64,000 bases of DNA from Bacteroidales bacterium (GTDB taxonomy: Bacteria > Bacteroidota > Bacteroidia > Bacteroidales > JAGOPY01): NCBI GenBank assembly GCA_023229505.1, contig JALNZD010000016.1, positions 1,604-65,603 of the forward strand, in the 5' to 3' direction. This document shows positions 24,870 to 42,369 of the stretch, in pieces (positions within the stretch are counted from its first letter, which is position 1; every line of letters starts with the position of its first letter). Below the pieces are notes generated by a model. The model saw nothing but the letters and a program-made list of their open reading frames with translations, did no database searches and was not told the DNA's origin. A program made the position numbers and the translations under genes.

Positions 24870-26915
24870 ATGAGCAAACCGATTGTTGACCGTGCTGCCG
24901 ACAATATCCGCATTTTATCCGCCGCCATGGTGGAGAAATCCAACTCCGGCCATCCTGGCGGAGCAATGGGAGGTGCTGATTACATCAACATCCTTTTCAC
25001 TGAATTTCTGAATTTCGATCCGGATGATCCCACCTGGCCCTTGCGCGACCGATTTTTCCTCGATCCCGGCCACATGTCGCCCATGCTTTATTCCATCCTC
25101 CATCTGTGTGGATATTTCTCCACAGAAGACCTGCAAAATTTCCGGCAATGGAATAGCGTAACGCCAGGCCACCCTGAGCTTGACCTGCTCCGCGGGATTG
25201 AAAACACATCGGGGCCGCTGGGGCAGGGACATGTGATAGCAGTGGGAGCCGCTATTGCAGAGCGTTTCCTTGCTGCGCGCTTCGGGGAATGGATGTCACA
25301 TAAAACCTTTGCCTATCTTTCCGACGGAAGCATAGAGGAAGAAATTTCCCAGGGAGCGGGTCGCATCGCGGGGTATCTGGGGTTAAATAACCTGATCATG
25401 TTTTACGATTCCAACGGTATCCAACTCTCCACAAAAGTCAATGAAGTTACCTGTGAAAATACAGCCGCGAAATACGAAGCCTGGGGCTGGTATGTGCAAT
25501 CCATCAACGGCAACAATGCCGGTGAAATCAGGCAGGCTTTGCAGAATGCTGTGACCGGGAAACATCGTCCTTGTCTTATCATCGGTAAAACGATTATGGG
25601 TTTTGGGACCCTTTCGGAAGATGGTAAAAAAATGGAAGGCCTCGGTTCTACTCACGGACAACCACTTTCCAAAGCAGGGGCTTCTATTGAGAAAACTATC
25701 CTTAACCTGGGCGGCGATCCGGCAAGACCCTTCCAGGTATTCCCTGATGTCAAAGAATATTACACCCGGATTTTGAGCAAAAAAAGAGATCAGACTGATT
25801 CCAGGAAAGCCACACAGCATACATGGGAGGATCTTAATCCCGGACTAACTGCCACATGGAAAAAGTGTATCGCCAATGAACCGCCTTACATTGATTACAA
25901 AGCTATCCCCCTCAAACCTGATGCGGCAACCCGCAATACATCAGGGGATGTCCTTGCTTACTATTCAGCTCACTTAGGTAATATGATCGTAATGTCAGCC
26001 GACCTTTCGAACAGTGACAAGACAGAAGGATTTCTCAAATCATCCAAACCTTTTAAACCGGGTGACTTTACCGGCGGGTTCCTGAATGCAGGCGTTTCCG
26101 AGCTGACCATGGCCGCAATTGCAAACGGCATCGCCTTGCATGGAGGTATATTTGTGGCTTGCGGCACTTTCTTTGTTTTCTCGGATTATATGAAACCGGC
26201 CATACGCCTGGCTGCCCTGATGCGTTTACCGGTGAAATACGTTTTCACCCACGACTCTTTCCGTGTCGGAGAAGATGGCCCGACGCACCAGCCGGTGGAG
26301 CAAGAGATGCAGCTCCGGTTGCTGGAACAACTTAAAAATCACCACGGTGGTAACGGACTGCTGGTTCTTCGCCCCGCTGACGGCGCCGAAACTATTGCCG
26401 CCTGGAAGATGGCTGTGGAAAACACTAAAAGCCCTACTGCCCTGATACTGTCCCGCCAGAATATCAAAGATATCCCTGCCCTTCCCGGTGGTTCCCGCTT
26501 TGAACAAGCCGGGCAGATCTGCAAAGGGGCCTATATTGTCAGGGACACCAGTGGAAAGCCCGATATCATCATGCTGGCCAACGGATCGGAAGTATCTACG
26601 CTGGTGGAAAGCGCTGATCTGCTTGAAATAGAGAAAGGCATTCATGCCAGGGTTGTTTCGGCCCCTTCGGAAGGTTTGTTCCGCCTCCAGGATAAAGCGT
26701 ATCAAATAAGTGTCATACCGGAAGATGTCCCTGTATTTGGACTTACAGCAGGACTTCCCGTCACCCTCCAGGGACTTGCAGGATGCAAAGGGAAGGTTTT
26801 CGGGCTTGACCACTTCGGCTTCTCCGCCCCTTACCAGGTCCTGGATGAAAAATTCGGATTTTCACCGGAGAACGTGGTGAATCAAGTGACAGAATTTTTG
26901 AAATTTGAAACTTGA
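24870..26915 (+). CDS. tkt: transketolase
   Basis: SGHPGGAMG TPP motif. The protein is 681 aa, with the pyrimidine-binding and C-terminal domains recognisable. Confidence 0.95.
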   Translation: MSKPIVDRAADNIRILSAAMVEKSNSGHPGGAMGGADYINILFTEFLNFDPDDPTWPLRDRFFLDPGHMSPMLYSILHLCGYFSTEDLQNFRQWNSVTPGHPELDLLRGIENTSGPLGQGHVIAVGAAIAERFLAARFGEWMSHKTFAYLSDGSIEEEISQGAGRIAGYLGLNNLIMFYDSNGIQLSTKVNEVTCENTAAKYEAWGWYVQSINGNNAGEIRQALQNAVTGKHRPCLIIGKTIMGFGTLSEDGKKMEGLGSTHGQPLSKAGASIEKTILNLGGDPARPFQVFPDVKEYYTRILSKKRDQTDSRKATQHTWEDLNPGLTATWKKCIANEPPYIDYKAIPLKPDAATRNTSGDVLAYYSAHLGNMIVMSADLSNSDKTEGFLKSSKPFKPGDFTGGFLNAGVSELTMAAIANGIALHGGIFVACGTFFVFSDYMKPAIRLAALMRLPVKYVFTHDSFRVGEDGPTHQPVEQEMQLRLLEQLKNHHGGNGLLVLRPADGAETIAAWKMAVENTKSPTALILSRQNIKDIPALPGGSRFEQAGQICKGAYIVRDTSGKPDIIMLANGSEVSTLVESADLLEIEKGIHARVVSAPSEGLFRLQDKAYQISVIPEDVPVFGLTAGLPVTLQGLAGCKGKVFGLDHFGFSAPYQVLDEKFGFSPENVVNQVTEFLKFET

Positions 26916-26956: not shown

Positions 26957-27367
26957 TTAAGAATAACCATATTCCTCATAGAACTTCCGGATGACAGAAT
27001 CGAGGTCATCAAAAACCACATAATGATTTTTGCACCCGTTTCTTGAACAAACACTCACTCTTCCACCAACATCTGCATTAAAAGAAACCATAGGAGCATC
27101 GCAGATATCACAGGTAACATTTTTTCTCTTGAGATTCTCTTTGCAATGTGGGCAAGTTAATACAACTATTTCATTGTCAGGTATATGAAATTCTGAACTG
27201 TAATTATAATCTCCGTAAATCGAACTCAACCACATCGTTCCCTTTTGATTGTTGGAAGTTTCGATATGTAGTCTGATTCCTGGTTTATTATTGATGAGAT
27301 GATTCCCGTCCATTAGCGATTCATCGCAATGAGGGCACCTGACTGATAATGCAATTACCTTTGTCAT
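26957..27367 (-). CDS. four-CxxC zinc-ribbon protein, last gene of the hydrogenase operon
   Basis: CPHC...CPHC...CDIC...CSRNGC pattern. The gene lies 27 bp downstream of mvhA. It is a paralog of 37951-38433. Confidence 0.6.
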   Translation of the reverse strand: MTKVIALSVRCPHCDESLMDGNHLINNKPGIRLHIETSNNQKGTMWLSSIYGDYNYSSEFHIPDNEIVVLTCPHCKENLKRKNVTCDICDAPMVSFNADVGGRVSVCSRNGCKNHYVVFDDLDSVIRKFYEEYGYS

Positions 27368-27394
27368 ATTTCAGGATTTTATAGATTAATGATA

Positions 27395-28864
27395 TCATGA
27401 CCCTTTCCTAATGATTGTTTGAATTATTTTTCCATTTGCATCCCTGACCTTTACTTCCATTGGCATCTTTCCGGGCAAATGGTGAGTTGCGCAGGAAAAG
27501 CAAGGATCATATGCACGGAAAGCCATTTCGATTAAATTAAGTTTCCCTTCATCAACCTCTTCTCCAGGCCGGATCAGTTGCATTGCAGCCATTTTAATTG
27601 AAAGGCAGATTGCGCCGTTGTTGTTCGTGGTACCAACAATAAGATTAACCTTTTTAGTTATACCTTTTTCATCAGTAAAATAATGATGCGTGAGCGTACC
27701 TCGTTGCGCTTCCACTGTACCAACCCCTTCACCGACGATTTTCCCCAAAGGAGCTCTGAGGTCAGTGCCGGTAATATCCGGATCATGTGTAAGTTCCAGG
27801 CAGTGCTCGGCGGCATAGAGTAGCTCGATCAGCCTGGCCCAATGCATGGCCATAGTAAAATGGACAGGTTTGGTCCCGAAAGTATCAAACATTTTAGCAT
27901 ATTCCACGTTTGCGAGAGGTGTGGCCATACCATCAGCCACATTCAACCGCGATAAAGGTGTTGCCATGTATAGGCCTGATTGCTGACCTTCAATTAAACC
28001 TTTCCATCCGATTTGTTTCAAATACGGAAATTTTAAATAACTCCAGGATTCCACGTGCTCTTCGATGAAATCCAGGTAATCCTTCGGTTCATATTTGCAT
28101 ATTTCGTTTCCAACAGTATCAACTACTCTCACCTTGCCATCATAAAAATTAACATAATTATGCTCATCAACCAGGCCCATGGAATGCAATGTCAACCGGT
28201 AGGGGCCATTCGTAATAAGGTCAAGATAATCGGGATTGCCCAGCACAACATTCTCAAACAGTTGAAGACTAAATTTGGCAAAATCGACAAATCCTCTGGC
28301 TTTTTTCTCCACATCATCCCTCTCTTGTTCTGTTAATCCTTTTCTGACCCCACCCGGAATATTCATAACCACATGAGTCTGATGCCCTCCAAGTAAAGCC
28401 TGTATCTCCTGGGCAAATCTTCTTTGTTTGATCACCTCAGCCACGATTTCCTTTCCAACTTTTCCTATGACACCAAGAAGATTCCGCTCCATTGGAGGAG
28501 CCGTCGGGCCAACAATAAAATCAGGCGCAGCCAGAGCGTAAAAGTGAGCAATATGGCTGTGTACAAAGTGGGCCATATAAAATAACTCACGTAACTTTTT
28601 AGCCGTAGGTGGAGGAACCAGGCCGTATACAGCATCCAAGGCCTTTCCTGAGGCCATGTGATGGCAACCGGGACAAACGCCGCAGATTTTTGTAACAATT
28701 TGAGGCAATTCTTCAACTGGGCGTCCTTCACAGAACTTTTCAAATCCTCTCAATTCCGGCACCTGGAAAAAAGCGTTTTCGACATTACCATTATCATCCA
28801 GTAAAATTTCTATTTTACCGTGACCTTCCAATCGGGTGATCGGGTCAATTGTGATCTGTTTCAT
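27395..28864 (-). CDS. mvhA: [NiFe] hydrogenase large subunit, Mvh/group 3c-like
   Basis: N-terminal RLEGHG and KICGVCPGCH, and C-terminal DPCFSCATH followed by a 28-aa extension. Confidence 0.9.
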   Translation of the reverse strand: MKQITIDPITRLEGHGKIEILLDDNGNVENAFFQVPELRGFEKFCEGRPVEELPQIVTKICGVCPGCHHMASGKALDAVYGLVPPPTAKKLRELFYMAHFVHSHIAHFYALAAPDFIVGPTAPPMERNLLGVIGKVGKEIVAEVIKQRRFAQEIQALLGGHQTHVVMNIPGGVRKGLTEQERDDVEKKARGFVDFAKFSLQLFENVVLGNPDYLDLITNGPYRLTLHSMGLVDEHNYVNFYDGKVRVVDTVGNEICKYEPKDYLDFIEEHVESWSYLKFPYLKQIGWKGLIEGQQSGLYMATPLSRLNVADGMATPLANVEYAKMFDTFGTKPVHFTMAMHWARLIELLYAAEHCLELTHDPDITGTDLRAPLGKIVGEGVGTVEAQRGTLTHHYFTDEKGITKKVNLIVGTTNNNGAICLSIKMAAMQLIRPGEEVDEGKLNLIEMAFRAYDPCFSCATHHLPGKMPMEVKVRDANGKIIQTIIRKGS

Positions 28865-29847
28865 ATAACCTTCCTCCGTAATATTGACGCAGGTAATGAA
28901 AATCTGTAAAAAGTTCCGGCCGGATCAGGAAATCCTTGTATAATCCGGGCAATTTCATCCGGGTCATCCGAATCAATCATCGTGGCAATAGCTGACATCA
29001 TCTTCGCTCCCGGATCAATAACATCAGCCGGAGGCCCGTAACAGCCCCGGCAGGGTGCATTCCCTTTGATGCAACGCGTGCCACATCCGCTGCGGGTAGC
29101 TGGTCCCAGACAGATAACACCCTGTTCCAGGAAACAGGTTTCATGATCATCTTCAATTTCGTAACTCCTGAAAATCTGCCTGATCTTTTTATTATCGGAT
29201 TTTTTCCGTTCACATTCTTCACATTGTGATTTTTCATTTGCCCCGATTACACTGCCTATTGGCGGCAATTCCGCACCAGAAAAAACCGCTTCAAGTACCT
29301 CCACCAGACGTTCGCTTTGAGGCGGACACCCGGGCATGAAATAATCAACCGGAACAACATCATTTAGCGTGTAAACATCCTTATAGAACTCCGGAAGACG
29401 TAAATGCAAACCTGCAATGTGTTGCTCAGTCAAAGGTCTGACCTTGTCCGGATTTACCGTTGATTCACATTCATCATATAACCTTTCAAATATTAAATCC
29501 TTATTAAAGAAATTAGCCAGTCCCGGAATCCCGCCCAAATGGGCACAAGTTCCATAAGCGATTAAAATTTTCGATTTCTGGCGAAGTACTTTAGCAAGAT
29601 GTTCGTTCTCCGAATTCCTGATTGCTCCATTGAACAAAGTAATATCTATAAACTTATCCGGCATGGCTTCGACATCCTTGTATTTGACATCCAGGGCGAT
29701 AGGCCAGAAAACCAGGTCAGCAGCTTCAACTACAGCGAAGAGCTTTTCATGAATATCCAGCACTGACACGCAACATCCACCGCAAGCAGCTCCCCAGTAA
29801 ACAGCCAGCTTCAATTTGGCTTTTTCTTTTGAATCACTCATGTGCAA
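28861..29847 (-). CDS. mvhG: [NiFe] hydrogenase small subunit, MvhG-like
   Basis: [11 protein letters not shown] and the [10 protein letters not shown] proximal-cluster region, plus C-terminal Cys clusters. There is a 4-bp overlap with mvhA. Confidence 0.85.
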
Positions 29848-30268
29848 CTTTTATTTTAGCGTTTTCGCAAACTTTACTTGGACCCAACGCTCTGATGGAT
29901 TCCGTGTATTTATCCACAAGGGCGGCAAATTGTCTGCCTTCGCTGGCACTGATCCATTCCAGCGATAACCTTTCCTCCTCGATACCCATTTGGGTGATAT
30001 ATTTTTTAAGTAGATGATATCTTCTCAGGCACTTGTAATTACCTGACTGGTAATGGCAATCACCGGGATGACAGCCACAGATAAGAACCCCGTCGGCCCC
30101 TTCACGGAAAGCCTCCAGAACAAAGGTGGGTTCAATTCTCCCTGAACACATGACCCGGATGATCCGGACATTGGCTGCATATTTCATCCGGGATGTACCG
30201 GCAAGATCTGCACCTGTATAGGCACACCAATTACATAGAAATGCCAGAATGGTCGGTTGATAACTCAT
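29834..30268 (-). CDS. mvhD: MvhD-type hydrogenase iron-sulfur subunit
   Basis: FLCNWCAY...VMCSGR...[11 protein letters not shown] is the MvhD/FlpD signature. Confidence 0.9.
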
Positions 30269-30272
30269 AAAT

Positions 30273-32009
30273 TTATACCTCCATAAGTTCTTTTGATTTT
30301 ACAATCAGTTCCCTGATTTCCGAGAGTATCTGCTGATCGGTAAAGTGCCTGCTCCTTATCGCCCCTGTCGGACATGAGGAGCCACAGGTGCCGCAACCCT
30401 TGCAAAGGATTTCATTAACCCTTGAGACCTTTTTATCCATATCATAACTTATCGCAGTATAGGGACATAAGCTGATACAAGTCTGACATCCGCAACAAAT
30501 TTCTTCGTTAACTGATGCAGTTGTGACCTCGACATTCATCTTTCCAAGGCTGATGTTGGCAAGAATCCTGGCAGTGGCTGCTCTCGCCTGCGCTACTGTA
30601 TTTGGGATATCCTTCGGCGCCTGGCAGCTTCCCACAATGAATACACCATCTGTGGTTGTGGCTACCGGATCAAGTTTAGGGTGCTTTTCGATGTAAAATT
30701 CATTACTGCACATGGCTATTCCGGTCATGTGTGCAACGCTTTTCGCCGTATCATGAGCCTCCATAGCCACCATCAGGATGATCAAATCGGCCGGTACCAG
30801 GACCTGCTCGCCGGTTAATTTCTCGTCAACCTCAACAACAAGGTTGGGATATTCATTCCTGGCTCCTTTGCGGATCAAGGGAAGGCCATCATTTTGATTA
30901 AACATTAAAAAAAGCACGTTTTTTCTTGAAGTATCCCGGTATAATTCCTCGCAACCTTTGCCATATGACCTCATGTCAGCATATAGCTGGTAAATAGAAG
31001 CATGTGGCAAGGCTGATCTGATCTGGTTGGAGTATTTCAACGCCGTGGAGCAACAGGTTCTTGAACAGTATTCATGGTAATGCGAATTACGGCTTCCGAC
31101 ACAATGGATGATCACAACATTTTTCGGTTCATCTCCCCTGCTGGTGACAATCCTGCCTCTCTTGAGCATGTTTTCAAATTGAAAAGATGTAATGACATTG
31201 GGATACTTAGTATACCCATATTGGGGAATGATTGACGGATCAAATGGCTTTAACCCTGTTGCTATAACAATATGACCAAACTCCAGCTTAACTTCCTCCT
31301 CCTGATAATTAAAGCTGGTTTCAAAATTTCCGATATATCCGTAAACCTCTTCAAGATTGGTATTCAGAAATACCCGGATGTTAGGAAGGTTGAGTACCCT
31401 GTCGATGACCGAGCGAATGACCTGCTGGGTGCTGTCGAAATATGGAAACGTCAGGTCGACTTCTGCTACGATACCTCCAAGATGTTCTGACTTTTCGATT
31501 AGAAAAGCCTGCTTCCCCGCATCTGCGATTTCAAGAGCCGCGGTCATACCGGCAATTCCTCCGCCAACGATGAGGGTTGAAGGCTTAATATCAACCAATC
31601 GTTTGTCAAGCGCCTCATGCCACCTGACCCGGTGCACTGCCGCTGCTACAAGGGCTATGGCTTTCTGTGTCGCTTCACTTCTGTCATTATGAACCCATGA
31701 AACCTGTTCCCTTATATTGGCCATCTCCAATAAATAGGGATTCAAACCGGCATGTTCAAGGGCTTTTCGGAAAGTAAACTCATGGATGCGGGGCGAACAA
31801 GCAGCAACCACTATCCTATTCAGCTTGAACTCCTTGATATCATTGACTATCTGATCTTGTCCCGGGTCAGAACACATGTATTGATAATTACGCGCTACGG
31901 TGACATCTTGGATCTTAGAAATGTGAGATGACACCTCTTCAACATCAACCATCCTGGCGATGTTGGACCCGCACCAGCATACATACACCCCTATTCGCTT
32001 TTCAGCCAT
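30273..32009 (-). CDS. hdrA: HdrA-like flavoprotein, paralog 2 (N-terminal Cys domain + C-terminal 2x[4Fe-4S] ferredoxin domain, no inserted ferredoxin)
   Basis: [10 protein letters not shown]...YMCSDPG...AACSPR, GGGIAG, HCVGSR...YCSRTCC, and C-terminal [12 protein letters not shown] and [12 protein letters not shown]. Confidence 0.85.
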
Positions 32010-32020
32010 ATTGATTCAAT

Positions 32021-33211
32021 TTATACAGTTGCAAGTGAATTCTGAATAACCATTTCTGTCCTCGCTTTCTTTTTCAAACGATACAAATAAATAGCAAAAG
32101 GCCGGTAGGCAAGATGCGACCATTTCGAGAAAGGAACCTCGATTACGATCATGGGAACGAGAATCGCCATATGTATGACATAGGTAAAGTAAGTGGTCAC
32201 AGGTATCCCGCTTAGCCTGAAAAAATGAAGTACTATCCCTGAAATAGTAGTCAGGCCTAGCATGACAATGAATAACCAGTCAGAAGCATGAGAATATTTG
32301 AATTTATAGTCCTTTTTAATAATACGCTGGTAAGTGGCGATCCCCAGAAAGAAAAGAATTCCAAAAGTGGCATAATATCCGAGAAGGCGCTGCCAATGAT
32401 ACCATGCATAAACCTCTTCTGTCTGAAATCGTTTTAACATGGCTACAATAAAAATGAACATCATAGTATAACCGGACATAAGAAGGAAATGGCCAAACCA
32501 GTATTTCCGGCGATCGCAATGATAAAACTTGTTTTGTGTTACAAAATGGTAAATAAGTGACCAGGCTTCTGTAAAATAGGCATAAAATGGAACCTTGTAC
32601 TTTTTATCCCTGAGTATTGACAGGATAAACATCCTGATAATATTGGAAATCAGGATGCCTCCAATGATAATGGCCATGATCCAATCAGACCACTCAATGA
32701 TTTTAACAAATTGATCCGCGGATATGCCTGCTACCAGGCTATTGATCATTACACCGCCTTGTGAATTAATAAAATTCGCAGGATTTGAGAACATATCACG
32801 GTTAGGTGGCAGAAAAATGGCAAATGCCGCTAGAACCAGCATAAAAAAGGTTAATACCACACCAACTTCCCAGAACTTCGAGGTGTAAAATTTACGCGAC
32901 AATCCCGTCCAGTCATAAAGTGAAGTCAGGTAACGCCGCATTGACATCATGATCTCTGCCGGGTTGGCATCCCGCGGGCAGGATTCGGAACATTCCCCGC
33001 AATAATAGCACAGCCAGGGGTCAAGATTTGCCACCATACTGTCTTTTAACCCAAGTTGTGCCTGCTTGATGACCTTCCTTGGAAAAAGAAAGCCTTCTTC
33101 GGTCAGCTTGCAAATCGCACTGCAATTGCCACAGTTAAAGCAATCATTCCAATCTCTTACGCCAAACTTCAGCAGATCAAGCTTAACCTGGTCGTTAACT
33201 AATTGGCTCAT
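32021..33211 (-). CDS. QmoC-like protein: HdrC-like 2x[4Fe-4S] domain fused to a His-rich multi-TM (HdrE/NarI-like) domain
   Basis: CFNCGNCSAIC and CYYCGECSESCP lie at the N-terminus. Several hydrophobic segments follow, with His residues in or near them (YHFV, FGHFLL, WYHW, VLHFF, VIHMA, WSHLAY). Confidence 0.7.
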   Translation of the reverse strand: MSQLVNDQVKLDLLKFGVRDWNDCFNCGNCSAICKLTEEGFLFPRKVIKQAQLGLKDSMVANLDPWLCYYCGECSESCPRDANPAEIMMSMRRYLTSLYDWTGLSRKFYTSKFWEVGVVLTFFMLVLAAFAIFLPPNRDMFSNPANFINSQGGVMINSLVAGISADQFVKIIEWSDWIMAIIIGGILISNIIRMFILSILRDKKYKVPFYAYFTEAWSLIYHFVTQNKFYHCDRRKYWFGHFLLMSGYTMMFIFIVAMLKRFQTEEVYAWYHWQRLLGYYATFGILFFLGIATYQRIIKKDYKFKYSHASDWLFIVMLGLTTISGIVLHFFRLSGIPVTTYFTYVIHMAILVPMIVIEVPFSKWSHLAYRPFAIYLYRLKKKARTEMVIQNSLATV

Positions 33212-35025
33212 AATACTTCCTCCTTTTTTTCAATCATCCTTTTTAACCTGGGTATTATTTCTTCAGGATAAACATCCTTAATAGGTCTGTTGATCTTTCC
33301 TTTAATAATACTTTGAAGCACCCGTGAAGCTGCAGCGGAAGCCTGGGCGACGGTATCGGGAATATCTTTAGGCCCCTGGCAGGTTCCGGCGATATGAATA
33401 CCTGAAACATGGGTATCAACAGGATTATTCAAATAATTACTCTCCACATACCATCCGTATTCATCCACCGGAATACCCAGCATTTCACTCAACCATTCAT
33501 ATCCTTCACTCGGTTCCAGGCCAACTGAAAGGATAACCATGTCGACCTCCTGCCAGACAATCTTTTGACCTTCAATATCTTCTGTCCTGATGAACAGTTT
33601 GTCACCGGAAGGAAGAACCCTGGCAGCTTTTCCGCGTTGAATGTGGATGCCTTCCTTTTTCACCCGTTCGTAAAATTCTTCATACCCCTTCCCGTAAGCC
33701 CTCATATCAATGAAGTACTCATAAATAGAAGCTTCAGGTAATTTTTCCCTGGCAAGATGGGCCATTTTAAGTGAGTACATGCAACAAACCCTTGAGCAAT
33801 ATTTGTTATAATGCTCGTCACGGCTGCCAATACAATGTATAAAGGCAATGCTTTTTGGCTCTTCATTTTCCGGGGAAAACACCCAATTGCCTTTTTTATC
33901 TTTCGATCTGAATTTGATCATTCCACCAGTAGGGCCGGAAGCATTGAGTAATCGCTCAAACTCCAGAGATGTCAATACATTTGGAAATTTACCATAGCCA
34001 TAATTTTCAATTCTGCGTGCATCAAAAGTCTTGAATCCGGTTGCAATGATGATGTTTCCTACTGCAAATTCAACCTCATGATCTTCTTCATCAAGGTTGA
34101 TACAACCCGGAACTGGGCATACCTTGACACAAACACCACATTTACCGTTTTCAACATAAGTACAATGCTCCGGATCAATCAGGTATTTATTTGGAACTGC
34201 CTGAGGAAATGGTATATAAATGGCTTTCCTCAAAGTCGTTGCAGCATCAAACTCACTGGGAGCAGTTCTCGGACATTTTTCCGCGCAGGTGCCACATCCG
34301 ATGCAGGCCGACAGGCTAACACGCCGGGCTTTCTTTAAAACTCTTACAGTAAAATTCCCCGCTTTTCCACTGATAAAAGAAATCATTGAATTAGTAAGAA
34401 TCTCAATATTAGCATGTTGACCCACTTCAACCATCTTAGGAGTCAAAATGCAAGCGGCACAATCCAACGTTGGGAAGGTTTTGTCAAACATTGCCATATG
34501 TCCGCCGATGGTTCCCGATTTTTCGACAAGATAAACCTTGTTTTTACTATTCCCGATTTCCAGCGCAGCCTGGATACCGGCAATACCACCGCCAATCACT
34601 AGTGTAGCAGCATGGACCGGAGCTTCTTCAGGCGGATAAACCGATGATAAATCCACACCAAAAAGCCCGCATATTATGACTGAGGCTGCAAAAGGTGCGC
34701 TGCTTTTTTTGAATATGCCATATTCCCGGAAATTAAGCAGAACAACGTCCTGGATGTCAAGACCTGCCATCAACATAGATTTTGTAAGAAATGTTTTGTA
34801 AAAGCCGACATTGTGGCCCGCAACTAAAATCCGTTTCACCTGAAGATTTCTGATCTGTTTTGCCATCGCTGCAGGATCGTAGACAGGCACTGTTTTTTCG
34901 TTCCACACCGGTCCGGTTTCTATTACCTTATGAAGTTCCACAACAACATCTTCCTGTCTCAAGCTGTCAGCGCTTCCATTGAACATGCTTCCGAAAAATA
35001 TGGCTGATGACCTTGGATTTATCAT
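33208..35025 (-). CDS. hdrA: HdrA-like flavoprotein, paralog 1 (Cys-less N-terminal domain, inserted 2x[4Fe-4S] ferredoxin domain, no C-terminal ferredoxin)
   Basis: GGGIAG, TLDCAACILTPK, CIGCGTCAEKCP, CGVCVKVCP and HCIGSR...YCSRVCC. The N-terminal region aligns to paralog 2 but has AGHNVG where paralog 2 has AACSPR. Confidence 0.85.
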   Translation of the reverse strand: MINPRSSAIFFGSMFNGSADSLRQEDVVVELHKVIETGPVWNEKTVPVYDPAAMAKQIRNLQVKRILVAGHNVGFYKTFLTKSMLMAGLDIQDVVLLNFREYGIFKKSSAPFAASVIICGLFGVDLSSVYPPEEAPVHAATLVIGGGIAGIQAALEIGNSKNKVYLVEKSGTIGGHMAMFDKTFPTLDCAACILTPKMVEVGQHANIEILTNSMISFISGKAGNFTVRVLKKARRVSLSACIGCGTCAEKCPRTAPSEFDAATTLRKAIYIPFPQAVPNKYLIDPEHCTYVENGKCGVCVKVCPVPGCINLDEEDHEVEFAVGNIIIATGFKTFDARRIENYGYGKFPNVLTSLEFERLLNASGPTGGMIKFRSKDKKGNWVFSPENEEPKSIAFIHCIGSRDEHYNKYCSRVCCMYSLKMAHLAREKLPEASIYEYFIDMRAYGKGYEEFYERVKKEGIHIQRGKAARVLPSGDKLFIRTEDIEGQKIVWQEVDMVILSVGLEPSEGYEWLSEMLGIPVDEYGWYVESNYLNNPVDTHVSGIHIAGTCQGPKDIPDTVAQASAAASRVLQSIIKGKINRPIKDVYPEEIIPRLKRMIEKKEEVL

Positions 35026-35099: not shown

Positions 35100-35113
35100 A
35101 TGATAATAATCAT
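35100..35113. promoter_or_regulatory. FNR/CRP-type palindrome ATGAT-AATA-ATCAT
   Basis: A perfect 5+4+5 palindrome about 80 bp upstream of the hdrA-like-1 start. It matches the core of TTGAT-N4-ATCAA. Confidence 0.55.
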
Positions 35114-35121
35114 GTTGGAAT

Positions 35122-35135
35122 ATGATTTTTATCAT
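35122..35135. promoter_or_regulatory. second FNR/CRP-type palindrome ATGAT-TTTT-ATCAT
   Basis: The half-sites are the same as in the first box. The box centres are 22 bp apart. Confidence 0.55.
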
Positions 35136-35172: not shown

Positions 35173-35865
35173 TTAGTTAATTTTCCCTATCTTTTTCAGC
35201 TCTTCAAAATTCCGGATGGAAATTTTTCGCCCATTGATATCGATCAGATGTTCATCTTTGAATTCGGATAACAACCGGATTACGCATTCAGTAGCTGTTC
35301 CTATAATATTAGCCAGGTCTGTCCTGGATAAATTAATGTGGTTATTTCCTCCATTTTTATTAAAAACTTCATGCAGGGCCAGTAATGTCTCTGCAAGACG
35401 CTCCCTGACCGGCTTTTGTGCAAGGGATAATAGCTTGCTCTCGGCGTCTTCAAGCAGCGAACTAAGCGCCACCATCAGGCAATGAGAGACATCGGGATAT
35501 TTGAGCGTAACTTTAAGAAATGGCCTTTTAGGAATAAAACAAACTACAGAATCTTCAAGCGTGACAGCAGCTGTTGAATAATTCCAACCGCTAATCAGTG
35601 CCCGCAATCCGAAAAAGCTTGATGGGGTGACAATCCTCACAACCTGCTCTTTACCGTCACATCCAAGTCGATATATTTTAACCTTACCATCATTCAGGCA
35701 ATAAACACCTTGCGGGGTTCTTCCTTCATGAAAAATGATCTGTCCGCGTTTAATAATCGTGCTGCTTTTGAACGAACTGATAGATGCCTTATCCTCAGGA
35801 GGTAATTTTGCAAAACAATTGAGACTTTTTGCAAGACAAACTGAACAATCACGCTCAACATACAT
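35173..35865 (-). CDS. Crp/Fnr-family transcriptional regulator with N-terminal Cys triad
   Basis: cNMP-binding-like beta-roll and C-terminal HTH (LSRTDLANIIGTATECVIRLLSEF). A C-x2-C-x6-C motif occurs at residues 7-17 counted from MYVERD, with further Cys downstream. Confidence 0.8.
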   Translation of the reverse strand: MYVERDCSVCLAKSLNCFAKLPPEDKASISSFKSSTIIKRGQIIFHEGRTPQGVYCLNDGKVKIYRLGCDGKEQVVRIVTPSSFFGLRALISGWNYSTAAVTLEDSVVCFIPKRPFLKVTLKYPDVSHCLMVALSSLLEDAESKLLSLAQKPVRERLAETLLALHEVFNKNGGNNHINLSRTDLANIIGTATECVIRLLSEFKDEHLIDINGRKISIRNFEELKKIGKIN

Positions 35866-36018
35866 CTTAAATCCGGCTTTTATATTTAACAAATATATAT
35901 AATTATCATATAAAGTCAATTTCTTAACATTGGTCAAGGCAGATTTCCCGTTTATTTTAGGTCTTGCATGAAAAATTTGGGTTTACAGCAGAAAAAGTAT
36001 TTAATTTAGTGACAGAGT

Positions 36019-36078
36019 TTTTGAAACTTGAAACTTGAAATTTGGGATACCTAACACGTTACACGTAACTCGTAACTC
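36019..36078. repeat. microsatellite block: (TTGAAAC)x3 then ACGTTAC/ACGTAAC/TCGTAAC units
   Basis: ttgaaacttgaaacttgaaatttgggatacctaacacgttacacgtaactcgtaactcg. It has the same two unit types, in the same order, as 9178-9260. Confidence 0.9.
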
Positions 36079-41481: not shown

Positions 41482-42369
41482 ATGACGAAGGATCGGTTTC
41501 TTGACTATATAACTTACGAAAAGCGCTATTCTCAACACACTATTGTTGCTTACCAGACTGACCTGGAGCAGTTTTTCACTTTTCTGACCAACCAGTATAA
41601 TATTTCTGACATTAATAATGTAAACCACCAGATCATCCGGTCGTGGGTCGTCAGCCTGATGGAAAGTGGCAATACAGCCAGAACCGTCAACCGGAAAATA
41701 ACCACCTTAAAATCTTACTTCAAATTTCTTGTCAAAGAAGAATCAATACAGGAAAACCCCATGAACCGGGTGGTTGCTCCGAAGACTTCCCAAAGGCTGC
41801 CGGTTTTCGTGGAGCAGGAAAGCATGAACATACTTTTTGAAGAAGTTGATTTTGGCGAAGGTTACCCAGCCATCCGTGACCGGTTGATCATGGAACTGTT
41901 TTACGCAACCGGGATGCGGTTATCTGAACTGATCAACCTGAAAGATGCAGACATTGACCTGTATAAAAATGTACTTAAAGTTACGGGCAAGCGCAATAAA
42001 CAGCGGATAATCCCGTTCTCTGCTAATCTGGTCAATATGCTCCGTGAATACCTTGAAATGAAGAGAAAGACATTCCCGGTGAACGAGCAGGACACTCACC
42101 TTTTCCTGACAAATAAAGGTGAAAAGCTCTACCCCAAAATGGTTTATCGCATGGTGCACCATTACCTCAACCTGGTTACCACAATCAGCAAGCGCAGTCC
42201 GCATGTGATCCGTCATACTTTTGCCACGCACATGCTGAATAACGGTGCCGACCTCAATGCCATCAAAGAAATCCTGGGTCATGCCAACCTTGCGGCAACC
42301 CAGGTCTATACCCATAATACGATTGAAAAGCTTAAATCAATATATAAACAGGCCCATCCCAGGGCTTAA
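41482..42369 (+). CDS. xerC: tyrosine recombinase XerC/XerD-type
   Basis: N-terminal SAM-like domain, and catalytic RLSEL...HVIRHTFATH...LGHANLAATQVYTH. It lies in the conserved rpsU-xer-hpf context. Confidence 0.85.
   Translation: MTKDRFLDYITYEKRYSQHTIVAYQTDLEQFFTFLTNQYNISDINNVNHQIIRSWVVSLMESGNTARTVNRKITTLKSYFKFLVKEESIQENPMNRVVAPKTSQRLPVFVEQESMNILFEEVDFGEGYPAIRDRLIMELFYATGMRLSELINLKDADIDLYKNVLKVTGKRNKQRIIPFSANLVNMLREYLEMKRKTFPVNEQDTHLFLTNKGEKLYPKMVYRMVHHYLNLVTTISKRSPHVIRHTFATHMLNNGADLNAIKEILGHANLAATQVYTHNTIEKLKSIYKQAHPRA

What the first reader, a model, noticed from the sequence alone, without database searches (positions are those of the whole stretch)
26957..35025. Mvh-type [NiFe] hydrogenase operon wired to a Qmo-like membrane module instead of HdrBC
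Seven co-directional genes are packed with 4-14 bp overlaps or gaps of 27 bp or less. In order they are hdrA-like-1, a QmoC-like protein, hdrA-like-2, mvhD, mvhG, mvhA and a zinc-ribbon protein. The QmoC-like protein has an HdrC-like 2x[4Fe-4S] domain fused to a His-rich multi-TM domain. No CCG-domain HdrB, and no free HdrC, is present anywhere in the window.

Established knowledge supplies two reference systems. In methanogens, MvhADG-HdrABC bifurcates electrons from H2 to ferredoxin and heterodisulfide. In sulfate reducers, QmoABC (two HdrA-like subunits plus an HdrC/HdrE fusion) connects the menaquinone pool to APS reductase.

Here the two halves are combined in what otherwise looks like a Bacteroidota chromosome. 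hdrA-like-2 plus mvhD together resemble a split QmoB. My inference is a membrane-anchored, flavin-based bifurcating or confurcating H2:menaquinone/ferredoxin oxidoreductase. I cannot tell from the sequence alone whether this architecture is already described.
Basis: partly seen in the sequence, partly recalled or inferred. Interest (0 to 1): 0.85.

Follow-up and report, generated by a model that had tools for sequence, protein, structure and literature searches.

The report
Membrane-anchored Mvh hydrogenase with Qmo module
A Bacteroidales chromosome carries a conserved operon that joins a methanogen-type cytoplasmic [NiFe] hydrogenase to two HdrA-like flavoproteins and a QmoC-like membrane cytochrome, probably linking H2 to menaquinone and ferredoxin; the same parts list and idea were already published for methanogenic Archaeoglobi, but it has never been tested biochemically.

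Summary
Seven tightly packed minus-strand genes (26957-35025) encode HdrA-like-1, a QmoC-like protein, HdrA-like-2, MvhD, MvhG, MvhA and a zinc-ribbon protein. An FNR-like regulator lies upstream. No HdrB or free HdrC is present in the window.

HdrA-like-2 plus MvhD is colinear with an Apr-linked QmoB. HdrA-like-1 is a QmoA-like protein with an added Cys-less N-domain. The membrane subunit has 8 FeS cysteines, six helices and conserved histidines on both membrane faces.

The order A1-QmoC-A2-MvhD-G-A recurs in every related locus with enough downstream sequence (18 of 18). Classical QmoA-B-C loci never carry the hydrogenase.

The best reading is a reversible, flavin-based bifurcating H2:menaquinone/ferredoxin oxidoreductase. 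This is inferred, not shown.

It is not new as an idea. Lynes et al. 2024, citing Buessecker et al. 2023, describe a "unique" MvhAGD + two HdrA + QmoC cluster in Ca. Methanoglobus and propose the same reaction. I found no description for Bacteroidota; one paper on a related phylum labels a comparable hydrogenase "MvhADG/HdrABC".

Verdict: a real, conserved and uncharacterised system, and a new bacterial member of a recently proposed kind. Interest is moderate to high.

The parts
35173..35865 (-). Crp/Fnr-family regulator. The probable start is the ATG at 35865, giving 230 aa; the mechanical ORF runs to the TTG at 35937. The N-terminus carries C-x2-C-x6-C (MYVERDCSVCLAKSLNCF).
   Evidence: The protein matches cNMP_binding and HTH_Crp_2, and NCBIfam Fnr at 86 bits. 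Public gene callers give 230 aa. A homologous regulator lies upstream of the cluster in at least 16 related loci, many with the same Cys motif.
35101..35134 (.). Two TGAT-N4-ATCA palindromes, 22 bp apart, in the 147-bp regulator/hdrA-like-1 intergenic region. They are candidate FNR/CRP boxes.
   Evidence: The whole 64-kb window has 7 such sites against 2.2 expected, and two of them fall here. The same motif is present in the equivalent intergenic region of L002, L006, L009, L015, L019 and L022.
33208..35025 (-). HdrA-like-1 (QmoA-like). It has a degenerate Cys-less N-domain, an FAD/thioredoxin-reductase fold, an inserted 2x[4Fe-4S] ferredoxin domain, the HdrA C-x13-C-x3-CC cluster motif and a DCxxC motif. 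It has no C-terminal ferredoxin domain.
   Evidence: It aligns to HdrA 5odc_A residues 54-571. The alignment with QmoA proteins is A2. Its N-domain is weakly homologous to that of HdrA-like-2.
32021..33211 (-). QmoC-like subunit. It has an N-terminal HdrC-like 2x[4Fe-4S] domain and six TM helices. The conserved residues are H241, H308, H329, H347, H366 and C232.
   Evidence: It matches NF038018 qmoC at 169 bits over its full length. The FeS domain hits HdrC in the PDB. The AF2 model has pLDDT 79.9 with helices 112-133, 165-200, 235-257, 273-298, 310-334 and 337-361.
30273..32009 (-). HdrA-like-2 (the flavoprotein part of QmoB). It has a Cys-complete N-domain ([4Fe-4S]), FAD, the C-x13-C-x3-CC motif and a C-terminal 2x[4Fe-4S] ferredoxin domain. 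The inserted ferredoxin domain is deleted and the DCxxC motif is lost.
   Evidence: It aligns to HdrA 5odc_A residues 1-232 and 309-647. It is colinear with residues 2-604 of an Apr-linked QmoB.
29834..30268 (-). MvhD ([2Fe-2S] adaptor). It corresponds to the C-terminal domain of QmoB.
   Evidence: It matches PF02662 at 186 bits and VhuD at 133 bits. It aligns to QmoB residues 607-735.
28861..29847 (-). MvhG, the small subunit with three [4Fe-4S] clusters. It has no twin-arginine signal, so it is cytoplasmic. The likely start is the ATG at 29841.
   Evidence: It matches VhuG at 219 bits. It matches 5odc_E over its full length at 241 bits, against 97 bits (N-terminal half only) for the HydS small subunit 7t2r_E.
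27395..28864 (-). MvhA, the [NiFe] large subunit. It has the RLEGHG, CGVCPGCH and DPCFSCATH motifs and a 27-residue C-terminal extension that needs an endopeptidase.
   Evidence: The sequence is. It matches VhuA at 386 bits and 5odc_F at 1e-116.
26957..27367 (-). Zinc-ribbon protein with about four CxxC pairs and unknown role. It is a loosely associated accessory gene.
   Evidence: The only hit is a weak Zn_ribbon_3 match, and there is no PDB relative. It sits in the same position in L001 (84% identity) and upstream of the regulator in L006 and L009 (about 50%). It is absent from most other loci, and in L005 a HycI-like protease follows mvhA instead.
26886..26915 (+). The true 3' end of transketolase. 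It is one copy of a direct repeat that brackets the regulator+operon block.
35961..36038 (+). A decayed duplicate of the transketolase 3' end (VLHEKFGFTAEKVFNLVTEFLKLET*). It is the other boundary of the ~9.1-kb block.
   Evidence: The 30-mer has exactly two copies in the window against 0 expected. tblastn gives 72% identity over 25 aa. The frame upstream is broken by stops.

Best explanation
The seven genes, under an adjacent FNR-like regulator, most likely encode one cytoplasm-facing, membrane-anchored complex.

The proposed electron path is as follows.
- H2 is oxidised at the [NiFe] site of MvhA.
- Electrons pass through the three [4Fe-4S] clusters of MvhG to the [2Fe-2S] cluster of MvhD.
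- HdrA-like-1 and HdrA-like-2 form a heterodimer that replaces the HdrA homodimer of methanogens, each keeping one of the two ferredoxin domains.
- At an FAD the electron pair is split. The high-potential electron goes through the HdrC-like clusters of the QmoC-like subunit and its b haem(s) to menaquinone. [quoted passage not shown]

The net reaction would be 2 H2 + MK + 2 Fd(ox) <-> MKH2 + 2 Fd(red) + 2 H+. At sediment H2 pressures this is close to equilibrium, so it would be reversible.

Shown here: gene content, domain and cofactor motifs, membrane topology, conserved gene order, and absence of HdrB. Inferred: that the proteins form one complex, that menaquinone and ferredoxin are the acceptors, that the coupling is bifurcating, and the physiological direction.
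For: Tight operon: junctions range from -14 to +27 nt.

Parts and motifs.

Complementary domain loss in the two HdrA paralogues. A1 keeps the inserted Fd domain and DCxxC motif. A2 keeps the Cys-complete N-domain and the C-terminal Fd domain. The same asymmetry is seen in QmoA and QmoB.

In canonical Hdr, the low-potential branch runs through the inserted ferredoxin domain. The high-potential branch runs through HdrA and HdrC clusters. The hydrogenase arm sits with the N- and C-terminal regions of HdrA (PMC13518236; PMC6019823).

The HdrC-like domain is fused to six TM helices. His residues conserved on the cytoplasmic side are H241, H308 and H366. Those on the periplasmic side are H329 and H347. 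The fold hits are HdrC (prob 1.0), EtfD (0.87) and NarI (0.63).

Absolute linkage: all 18 loci with the A1-C-A2 order and at least 3.9 kb of downstream sequence continue with MvhD-G-A. No QmoA-B-C-order locus does.

MvhG has no Tat signal.

Independent specialists proposed the same reaction for the same parts list in Ca. Methanoglobus, where the cluster is highly transcribed at 995-2431 RPKM (PMC10945360).

Ramos et al. 2012 had already suggested a hydrogenase as partner of QmoB's MvhD domain (PMC3333476).
Against: There are no biochemical data for any member of this kind.

The quinone site, the haem number and the haem ligands are not established. H329 and H308 are conserved only within the close family. 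The His at position 226 of cutoff-passing QmoC is Gln here.

Fold matches of the TM domain have non-significant E-values.

Both flavoproteins retain FAD motifs, so the bifurcating site is ambiguous.

Ferredoxin as the acceptor is only an analogy with HdrA.

I could not examine the rest of the genome for menaquinone synthesis, fumarate reductase, Rnf, hyp genes or a possible third partner.

The maturation protease is not in the window.
Confidence: 0.6

Rival explanations
1. The same complex is physiologically a confurcating H2-evolving enzyme. Menaquinol and reduced ferredoxin together reduce protons. This would let a fermentative Bacteroidales dispose of quinol-level electrons as H2 at low H2 partial pressure.
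For: The reaction is near equilibrium at 1-10 Pa H2, by my calculation from standard potentials of H2 (-414 mV), MK (-74 mV) and Fd (about -450 to -500 mV). Confurcation is the favoured hypothesis for Qmo (PMC3333476). The relatives come largely from environmental metagenome assemblies. The FNR-like regulator implies anaerobic expression.
Against: Nothing in the sequence indicates direction. Bacteroidota normally re-oxidise menaquinol with fumarate reductase (established knowledge). Mvh enzymes in methanogens act in uptake.
Confidence: 0.3
2. It is a simple, non-bifurcating cytoplasmic H2:menaquinone oxidoreductase. The flavoproteins act only as electron wires or 2e/1e converters, and no ferredoxin is reduced.
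For: H2 to MK is strongly exergonic on its own. The membrane anchor and FeS chain would suffice.
Against: Two large HdrA-type flavoproteins would be superfluous. Both keep the FAD motif and the unusual FAD-proximal cluster motif, and one keeps the inserted ferredoxin domain. Ordinary quinone-reducing uptake hydrogenases use a cytochrome b directly (established knowledge). The flavoprotein pair is conserved in all 18 complete loci.
Confidence: 0.15
3. The complex serves a third, soluble partner encoded elsewhere. By analogy, QmoA donates to AprAB. The partner could be a sulfur-metabolism enzyme, a DsrC-like disulfide or an HdrB-like protein. In that case H2 plus menaquinol would confurcate onto that acceptor.
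For: QmoA interacts with AprAB in sulfate reducers (PMC3333476). Relatives of the QmoC-like protein sit in aprBA-qmoABC loci (L077) and next to a TsuA-like thiosulfate transporter (L074).
Against: No apr, dsr, hdrB or sulfur gene is in the window or adjacent to any of the 18 complete Mvh-linked loci I inspected by similarity. HdrA-like-1 keeps a full two-cluster ferredoxin domain, whereas the Apr-linked QmoA of L077 has lost the second cluster motif.
Confidence: 0.1

Closest known systems
'Mvh-Qmo-Hdr' gene cluster of methanogenic Archaeoglobi: Ca. Methanoglobus nevadensis (Buessecker et al. 2023, ISME J 17:1649) and Ca. M. hypatiae (Lynes et al. 2024, PMC10945360)
   Same: The parts list is identical as described: MvhAGD, two HdrA copies (one classed as QmoB) and a QmoC with a fused HdrC domain. 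No HdrB is involved. The proposed reaction is the same, H2 to menaquinone plus ferredoxin by bifurcation.
   Different: It is in a different domain of life and a different habitat: thermophilic archaea against mesophilic Bacteroidales. I could not obtain the archaeal sequences, so gene order, orthology and domain-loss pattern were not compared. The archaeal cluster is known only from genomes and transcriptomes. Here there is also an FNR-like regulator and a zinc-ribbon gene.
QmoABC of sulfate reducers and sulfur oxidisers (Pires et al. 2003; Ramos et al. 2012, PMC3333476)
   Same: The membrane subunit is homologous over its full length and 42% identical to the QmoC of an aprBA-linked locus. 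There are two HdrA-like flavoproteins with the same asymmetry. An MvhD module follows the second flavoprotein.
   Different: The gene order is A-C-B rather than A-B-C. QmoB is split into HdrA-like-2 and MvhD. The QmoA equivalent carries an extra degenerate N-domain. The flavoproteins are much closer to methanogen HdrA (E about 1e-130) than to the QmoB and QmoA-like proteins examined (26-38% identity). The cluster is linked to MvhGA and not to aprBA. Position 226 is Gln, not the His seen in QmoC sequences that pass the NCBIfam cutoff.
MvhADG-HdrABC of methanogens (Kaster et al. 2011; Wagner et al. 2017, PDB 5ODC)
   Same: The hydrogenase module MvhA/G/D is the closest solved relative. The HdrA fold is present, with FAD and the FAD-proximal cluster motif. 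The HdrC-like two-cluster domain is present.
   Different: There is no HdrB, so no heterodisulfide chemistry. HdrC is fused to a six-helix membrane domain. One HdrA is replaced by two paralogues, each lacking one ferredoxin domain.
FixABCX / EtfABCX (bifurcating NADH:quinone, ferredoxin/flavodoxin oxidoreductases)
   Same: This is the functional precedent for flavin-based bifurcation with a quinone as the high-potential acceptor (PMC5861303; PMC6085437).
   Different: The proteins are unrelated (Etf family), the donor is NADH rather than H2, and the attachment is peripheral rather than integral.
NarI / HdrE / EtfD-type dihaem cytochrome b quinone modules
   Same: EtfD and NarI are the only membrane-protein fold hits with probability above 0.5. 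His residues lie on both membrane faces.
   Different: The E-values are not significant. The His spacing and the helices carrying them differ from NarI (my reading). Pfam PF02665 does not hit.

Membership tests
Group 3c [NiFe]-hydrogenase (Mvh/Vhu) | Large subunit with N- and C-terminal Ni-Fe cysteine motifs (CxxC ... DPCxxCxxH) | tested here: met
   The motifs RLEGHG, KICGVCPGCH and DPCFSCATH are present, plus a C-terminal extension.
Group 3c [NiFe]-hydrogenase (Mvh/Vhu) | Large subunit closest to MvhA/VhuA rather than to other group 3 enzymes | tested here: inconclusive
   The best hits are MvhA 5odc_F (394 bits) and NCBIfam VhuA (386 bits, below the equivalog cutoff of 800). The bifurcating NiFe-HydL 7t2r_D is nearly equal at 388 bits. 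Groups 3d, 3a and 3b score lower, at 315, 112 and 94 bits. No HydDB run or phylogeny was done.
Group 3c [NiFe]-hydrogenase (Mvh/Vhu) | MvhG-type small subunit with a C-terminal extension carrying the medial and distal clusters | tested here: met
   It matches MvhG 5odc_E over its full length (residues 12-323, 241 bits). HydS 7t2r_E matches only residues 10-196 (97 bits). VhuG scores 219 bits.
Group 3c [NiFe]-hydrogenase (Mvh/Vhu) | MvhD [2Fe-2S] subunit encoded with the hydrogenase | tested here: met
   PF02662 FlpD at 186 bits covers the whole model.
Group 3c [NiFe]-hydrogenase (Mvh/Vhu) | Partnered with HdrABC, including the CCG-domain HdrB | tested here: not met
   No CCG domain occurs in any frame of the window. 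None lies in the operon or its neighbours.
QmoABC | QmoC: HdrC-like 2x[4Fe-4S] domain fused to a six-helix membrane domain | tested here: met
   There are 8 Cys in two motifs. The NF038018 alignment spans model positions 8-358 of 360. Six helices are predicted.
QmoABC | QmoC equivalog score (NCBIfam NF038018 cutoff of 300 bits) | tested here: not met
   The score is 169 bits. The cutoff is narrow, however. The QmoC of an aprBA-qmoABC locus (L077) scores only 208 bits, while P0217, P0266 and P0265 score 419, 393 and 366 bits.
QmoABC | Conserved haem-ligand histidines in the membrane domain (two haems b in the purified complex, Pires et al. 2003, from memory) | tested here: inconclusive
   H241, H347 and H366 are invariant across the superfamily. 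H308 (119/119) and H329 (117/119) are conserved only in the close family. The His at position 226 of cutoff-passing QmoC is Gln in 119/119 close relatives. The geometry could not be measured.
QmoABC | QmoB: a single polypeptide of HdrA-like flavoprotein plus a C-terminal MvhD domain | tested here: not met
   It is split into two genes 4 nt apart. Both align colinearly to QmoB residues 2-604 and 607-735.
QmoABC | Gene order qmoA-qmoB-qmoC, typically next to aprBA | tested here: not met
   The order here is A-C-B-(MvhD-G-A). No apr genes are present.
HdrABC heterodisulfide reductase | HdrA with all six clusters; HdrB with two CCG domains; free HdrC | tested here: not met
   The two HdrA paralogues score 527 and 565 bits against a cutoff of 1100, and each lacks one ferredoxin domain. 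There is no HdrB. HdrC is fused to the TM domain.
Mvh-Qmo-Hdr cluster (Ca. Methanoglobus) | [quoted passage not shown] | tested here: met
   The parts list matches the published description (PMC10945360).
Mvh-Qmo-Hdr cluster (Ca. Methanoglobus) | Orthology and shared gene order with the archaeal genes | not tested

The most novel reading that the evidence does not exclude
This would be a widespread bacterial energy-coupling enzyme that has been overlooked because it is annotated as 'MvhADG/HdrABC'. It would be the first bifurcating hydrogenase whose high-potential acceptor is the membrane quinone pool. It would let abundant anaerobic Bacteroidota both respire with H2 and make low-potential ferredoxin, or vent quinol electrons as H2. 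It would also give natural genetic evidence for the long-debated idea that Qmo-type complexes work by confurcation with an Mvh-type partner docking on the MvhD domain.
Probability: 0.4. Interest if true: 0.75.

Novelty: new member of a known kind. Interest (0 to 1): 0.55.

Why it matters
Group 3c hydrogenases in bacteria are routinely interpreted as heterodisulfide-linked, although these bacteria have no CoM-CoB heterodisulfide. For example, the Ignavibacteriae MAG in PMC7509429 is labelled this way, and the Caldithrix cluster is reported as of unknown function in PMC5317091.

If the Bacteroidota enzyme couples H2 to menaquinone and ferredoxin, three things follow:
- It supplies the missing acceptor for this group.
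- It changes how H2 budgets of anoxic sediments, digesters and similar habitats are modelled.
- It offers a possibly more tractable bacterial system than thermophilic archaeal enrichments for testing HdrA-based bifurcation to a quinone.

It also bears on the unresolved mechanism of QmoABC in sulfate reduction. The exact QmoC-like protein of this window occurs on at least 22 contigs from several metagenomes. The family has thousands of members. The system is therefore environmentally common.

Tried and rejected
- **Genome scan.** The genome-contig scan with the single QmoC-like protein returned only 4 close loci.
- **Promoter and terminator scans.** The sigma-70 promoter scan was uninformative, with 20 sites against 21.3 expected, and Bacteroidota promoters are not covered. 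The terminator scan gave nothing convincing, with 13 sites against 8.6 expected.
- **NCBIfam cutoffs.** I considered using the equivalog cutoffs as membership tests for QmoC. I rejected this as decisive because an Apr-linked QmoC also fails the cutoff.
- **Fold search.** The Foldseek search of the AF2 model gave no significant hit for the membrane domain, with the best E-value at 0.09. It is used only as a weak hint.
- **Zinc-ribbon protein.** It has no informative family or structural relative. A HypA-like role was considered, but the N-terminus lacks the MHE motif (my reading), so it is not claimed.
- **Downstream ORFs as hyp genes.** I considered that the 731-aa and 338-aa ORFs at 58-61 kb might be HypF and HypE. 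They are RelA/SpoT and FloA.
- **Apparent CCG motif.** I considered that the apparent CCG motif at 30384-30626 was an HdrB remnant. It is the C-terminal ferredoxin domain of HdrA-like-2.
- **Literature.** Nine searches found no description of the cluster in Bacteria. Paywalled reviews, such as Appel et al. 2021 (BBA) on HdrA modules, could not be checked.
- **tkt duplicate in a relative.** I looked for the tkt 3' duplicate in the closest relative, L001, and did not find it.

Full report
**1. Observation**

The seven co-directional minus-strand ORFs are present exactly as reported. Their junctions are -4, +11, +4, -14, -4 and +27 nt.

Pfam and NCBIfam give the following assignments:

| Coordinates | Length | Assignment | Support |
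|---|---|---|---|
| 33208-35025 | 605 aa | HdrA-like-1 | HdrA2 model, 527 bits |
| 32021-33211 | 396 aa | QmoC-like | NF038018, 169 bits, model 8-358 of 360; also HdrC |
| 30273-32009 | 578 aa | HdrA-like-2 | HdrA2 model, 565 bits |
| 29834-30268 | 144 aa | MvhD | PF02662, 186 bits |
| 28861-29847 | 328 aa | MvhG | VhuG, 219 bits |
| 27395-28864 | 489 aa | MvhA | VhuA, 386 bits |
| 26957-27367 | 136 aa | Zinc-ribbon protein | weak hit only |

MvhA carries the RLEGHG, CGVCPGCH and DPCFSCATH motifs.

A six-frame motif scan finds no CCG domain in the window. It also finds no further CxxCxxCxxxCP motif outside these genes. Pfam scans of 39 other ORFs show only housekeeping functions: RNase Y, permeases, a TonB receptor, transketolase, DPP-IV, XerC/D-like integrase, RelA/SpoT and FloA. 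The tRNA-tuf-rplKAJL-rpoBC region lies downstream.

The operon is bounded by a Crp/Fnr gene upstream and a convergent transketolase downstream, so HdrBC cannot be part of it. The closest genome locus is an uncultured Bacteroidales MAG with the same neighbours.

**2. Anatomy of the flavoproteins**

I aligned both HdrA-like proteins to the solved HdrA (5odc_A).

- HdrA-like-1 covers residues 54-571. It has the thioredoxin-reductase/FAD fold, the inserted two-cluster ferredoxin domain, the FAD-proximal C-x13-C-x3-CC motif and a DCxxC motif. It has no C-terminal ferredoxin domain, and its N-domain has lost all cluster cysteines (sequence).
- HdrA-like-2 covers residues 1-232 and 309-647. [quoted passage not shown] The inserted ferredoxin domain is cleanly deleted and the DCxxC motif is lost.
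- The two paralogues are 39% identical in the C-terminal half and 27% in the N-terminal half.

An aprBA-linked qmoABC locus recovered from metagenomes (L077) served as the Qmo reference. Its aprA scores 874 bits and its aprB 199 bits.

- Its QmoB (742 aa) aligns colinearly with HdrA-like-2 at residues 2-604, at 26% identity.
- The same QmoB aligns with MvhD at residues 607-735, at 28% identity.
- QmoA (422 aa) corresponds to HdrA-like-1 without its N-domain.

The 'split QmoB' idea is therefore correct in architecture. By sequence, however, both flavoproteins are far closer to methanogen HdrA (E about 1e-130).

**3. The membrane subunit**

Hydropathy and an AlphaFold2 model (pLDDT 79.9, pTM 0.79) agree on the layout. 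A cytoplasmic FeS domain is followed by six helices at 112-133, 165-200, 235-257, 273-298, 310-334 and 337-361. The Lys/Arg-rich loops lie on the side of the FeS domain (my reading of the sequence).

The exhaustive representative search finds 1834 relatives at E < 1e-3 and 133 at E < 1e-30. Three of these pass the NCBIfam QmoC cutoff.

In a 196-sequence alignment, several residues are conserved across the superfamily:
- the 8 FeS cysteines;
- C232, H241, D311, W312, H347 and H366.

Within the close family, H308 (119/119) and H329 (117/119) are also conserved. The His at position 226 of cutoff-passing QmoC is Gln in all 119 close relatives.

In the predicted topology, H241, H308 and H366 lie at the cytoplasmic face and H329 and H347 in the outer half. 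This is compatible with a transmembrane dihaem arrangement but does not prove it.

Foldseek matches HdrC with probability 1.0. The only membrane hits above 0.5 are EtfD (0.87) and NarI (0.63), and their E-values are non-significant.

The NCBIfam cutoff is not a fair membership test. The QmoC of the Apr-linked locus scores only 208 bits, yet it is 42% identical to the window protein.

**4. Conservation of the gene order**

They comprise 4 genome loci, 1 locus from an exact-protein look-up and 80 metagenome loci. Two architectures emerge.

- **Type I.** The order is (Crp/Fnr)-A1-QmoC-A2. It occurs in 25 loci, plus 4 truncated but consistent ones. In all 18 loci with at least 3.9 kb downstream of QmoC, it continues with MvhD-MvhG-MvhA. 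Shorter contigs show MvhD, or MvhD-G, up to the contig end. One locus (L079) is unresolved.
- **Type II.** The order is the classical (MvhD)-QmoA-QmoB-QmoC. It occurs in about 25 loci and never has a hydrogenase, even with 10 kb of downstream sequence.

In L005, a 4.1-Mb contig, a HycI-like protease follows mvhA. In the window and in L001 a zinc-ribbon gene sits there instead.

Named relatives are Bacteroidales, Marinilabiliaceae, Marinifilaceae and Sphingobacteriales MAGs. More distant QmoC-like proteins (35-38% identity) occur in Vicinamibacteria and Ca. Coatesbacteria.

The identical window protein is found on at least 22 contigs from several metagenomes.

**5. Mechanism**

In canonical Mvh-Hdr, three points are established:
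- the hydrogenase arm sits with the N- and C-terminal regions of HdrA;
- the low-potential electron leaves through the inserted ferredoxin domain;
- the high-potential electron goes through HdrA and HdrC clusters to HdrB (PMC13518236; PMC6019823).

I map this onto the present proteins as follows. MvhA, MvhG and MvhD feed HdrA-like-2, which retains the docking domains. An A1/A2 heterodimer replaces the HdrA homodimer. HdrA-like-1, which retains the inserted ferredoxin domain, reduces ferredoxin. The HdrC-like domain of the QmoC-like subunit takes the high-potential electron to b haem(s) and menaquinone.

From standard potentials (my calculation), the reaction is exergonic at 1 bar H2. It is near equilibrium at 1-10 Pa, so it could run either way.

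Complex formation, the identity of the acceptors, the coupling and the direction are all inferences.

The rivals are set out in the dedicated field:
- physiological H2 evolution by confurcation;
- a simple uncoupled H2:MK oxidoreductase;
- an unknown third partner.

**6. Regulation**

The upstream regulator is FNR-like (86 bits to Fnr). Its probable 230-aa form starts MYVERDCSVCLAKSLNCF, a C-x2-C-x6-C motif that recurs in many orthologous regulators.

Two TGAT-N4-ATCA palindromes lie in the 147-bp region upstream of hdrA-like-1, where the whole window has 7 against 2.2 expected. The motif recurs in the same position in six other loci.

This suggests anaerobic or redox control. It has not been tested.

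**7. Comparison with the literature**

Nine full-text searches found no description of this cluster in Bacteria. Bacterial group 3c enzymes are interpreted as 'MvhADG/HdrABC' or left as of unknown function (PMC7509429; PMC5317091).

Lynes et al. 2024 (PMC10945360), citing Buessecker et al. 2023, report for Ca. Methanoglobus 'a unique gene cluster ... [quoted passage not shown] They note that it is highly transcribed. They hypothesise that it bifurcates electrons from H2 to menaquinone and ferredoxin, and they name it Mvh-Qmo-Hdr.

Ramos et al. 2012 had earlier proposed a hydrogenase as a possible partner of QmoB's MvhD domain.

What is new here:
- the bacterial (Bacteroidota) occurrence and its breadth;
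- the diagnostic A-C-B order with absolute Mvh linkage;
- the complementary domain loss in the two flavoproteins;
- the His pattern that differs from cutoff-passing QmoC.

I could not compare the sequences with the archaeal cluster, and I could not read Buessecker et al..

**8. Verdict**

- Novelty: a new member, in a different domain of life, of a recently proposed and uncharacterised kind.
- Interest: 0.55.

Noticed in passing
window 26886-26915 and 35961-36038: The ~9.1-kb regulator+operon block is bracketed by a direct duplication of the transketolase 3' end. The second copy translates to VLHEKFGFTAEKVFNLVTEFLKLET*, against the true C-terminus VLDEKFGFSPENVVNQVTEFLKFET*, and is preceded by stop codons. 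This looks like the scar of an insertion at the 3' end of tkt, that is, a horizontally acquired cassette. There is no integrase inside the block, and the nearest (XerC/D-like) is at 41482-42369. The duplicate was not found in the closest relative, L001.
   Followed up: partly
window 35101-35134 and 35173-35865: Two TGAT-N4-ATCA palindromes lie upstream of hdrA-like-1. The adjacent Crp/Fnr regulator has an N-terminal C-x2-C-x6-C motif. Both features recur in related loci, which suggests an Fe-S (O2 or redox) sensing FNR-type activator dedicated to the operon.
   Followed up: partly
window 26957-27367: A 136-aa protein with about four CxxC pairs has no informative relative. It travels with the cluster in L001, L006 and L009. 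In L005 a HycI-like maturation protease follows mvhA instead. The window contains no HycI or hyp genes, although MvhA has a cleavable C-terminal extension.
   Followed up: partly
L018 2190-6910 (minus strand): A second, divergent A1-QmoC-A2 cluster (QmoC 33% identical) without any hydrogenase lies head-to-head with the Mvh-linked cluster. The flavoprotein/QmoC module therefore also exists on its own.
   Followed up: no
L074 5365-13641; L080; L077 1844-11218: Classical-order Qmo-like loci fall into at least two contexts. L077 has aprBA, a FixC-like flavoprotein and qmoABC. L074 and L080 have a separate MvhD-like gene, QmoA and a QmoB without the MvhD domain, then QmoC; in L074 a TsuA-like thiosulfate transporter follows. 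Neither carries a hydrogenase.
   Followed up: partly
window 32021-33211, residues 226, 308, 329: Position 226 is His in QmoC proteins that pass the NCBIfam cutoff. It is Gln in all 119 close relatives of the window protein. Those relatives instead conserve H308 and H329. The haem ligation may therefore differ between Apr-type and Mvh-type QmoC.
   Followed up: partly
L006 and L010, downstream of mvhA: A second small/large [NiFe] hydrogenase subunit pair (31-32% and 44% identity to MvhG and MvhA) lies a few kb downstream of the cluster in L010. L006 shows only the second small subunit.
   Followed up: no
L001 13259-15823 and 16286-18320: In the closest relative (a long-contig MAG), mvhA and tkt each appear as two adjacent pieces. 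These are probably frameshifts from assembly errors or pseudogenisation.
   Followed up: no
L015, L017, L019 upstream of the regulator: A transketolase-like region, matched by the window tkt protein in two pieces, lies just upstream of the cluster in three more distant loci. The window has a single-gene tkt on the other side. This may be coincidence or a recurrent neighbourhood.
   Followed up: no
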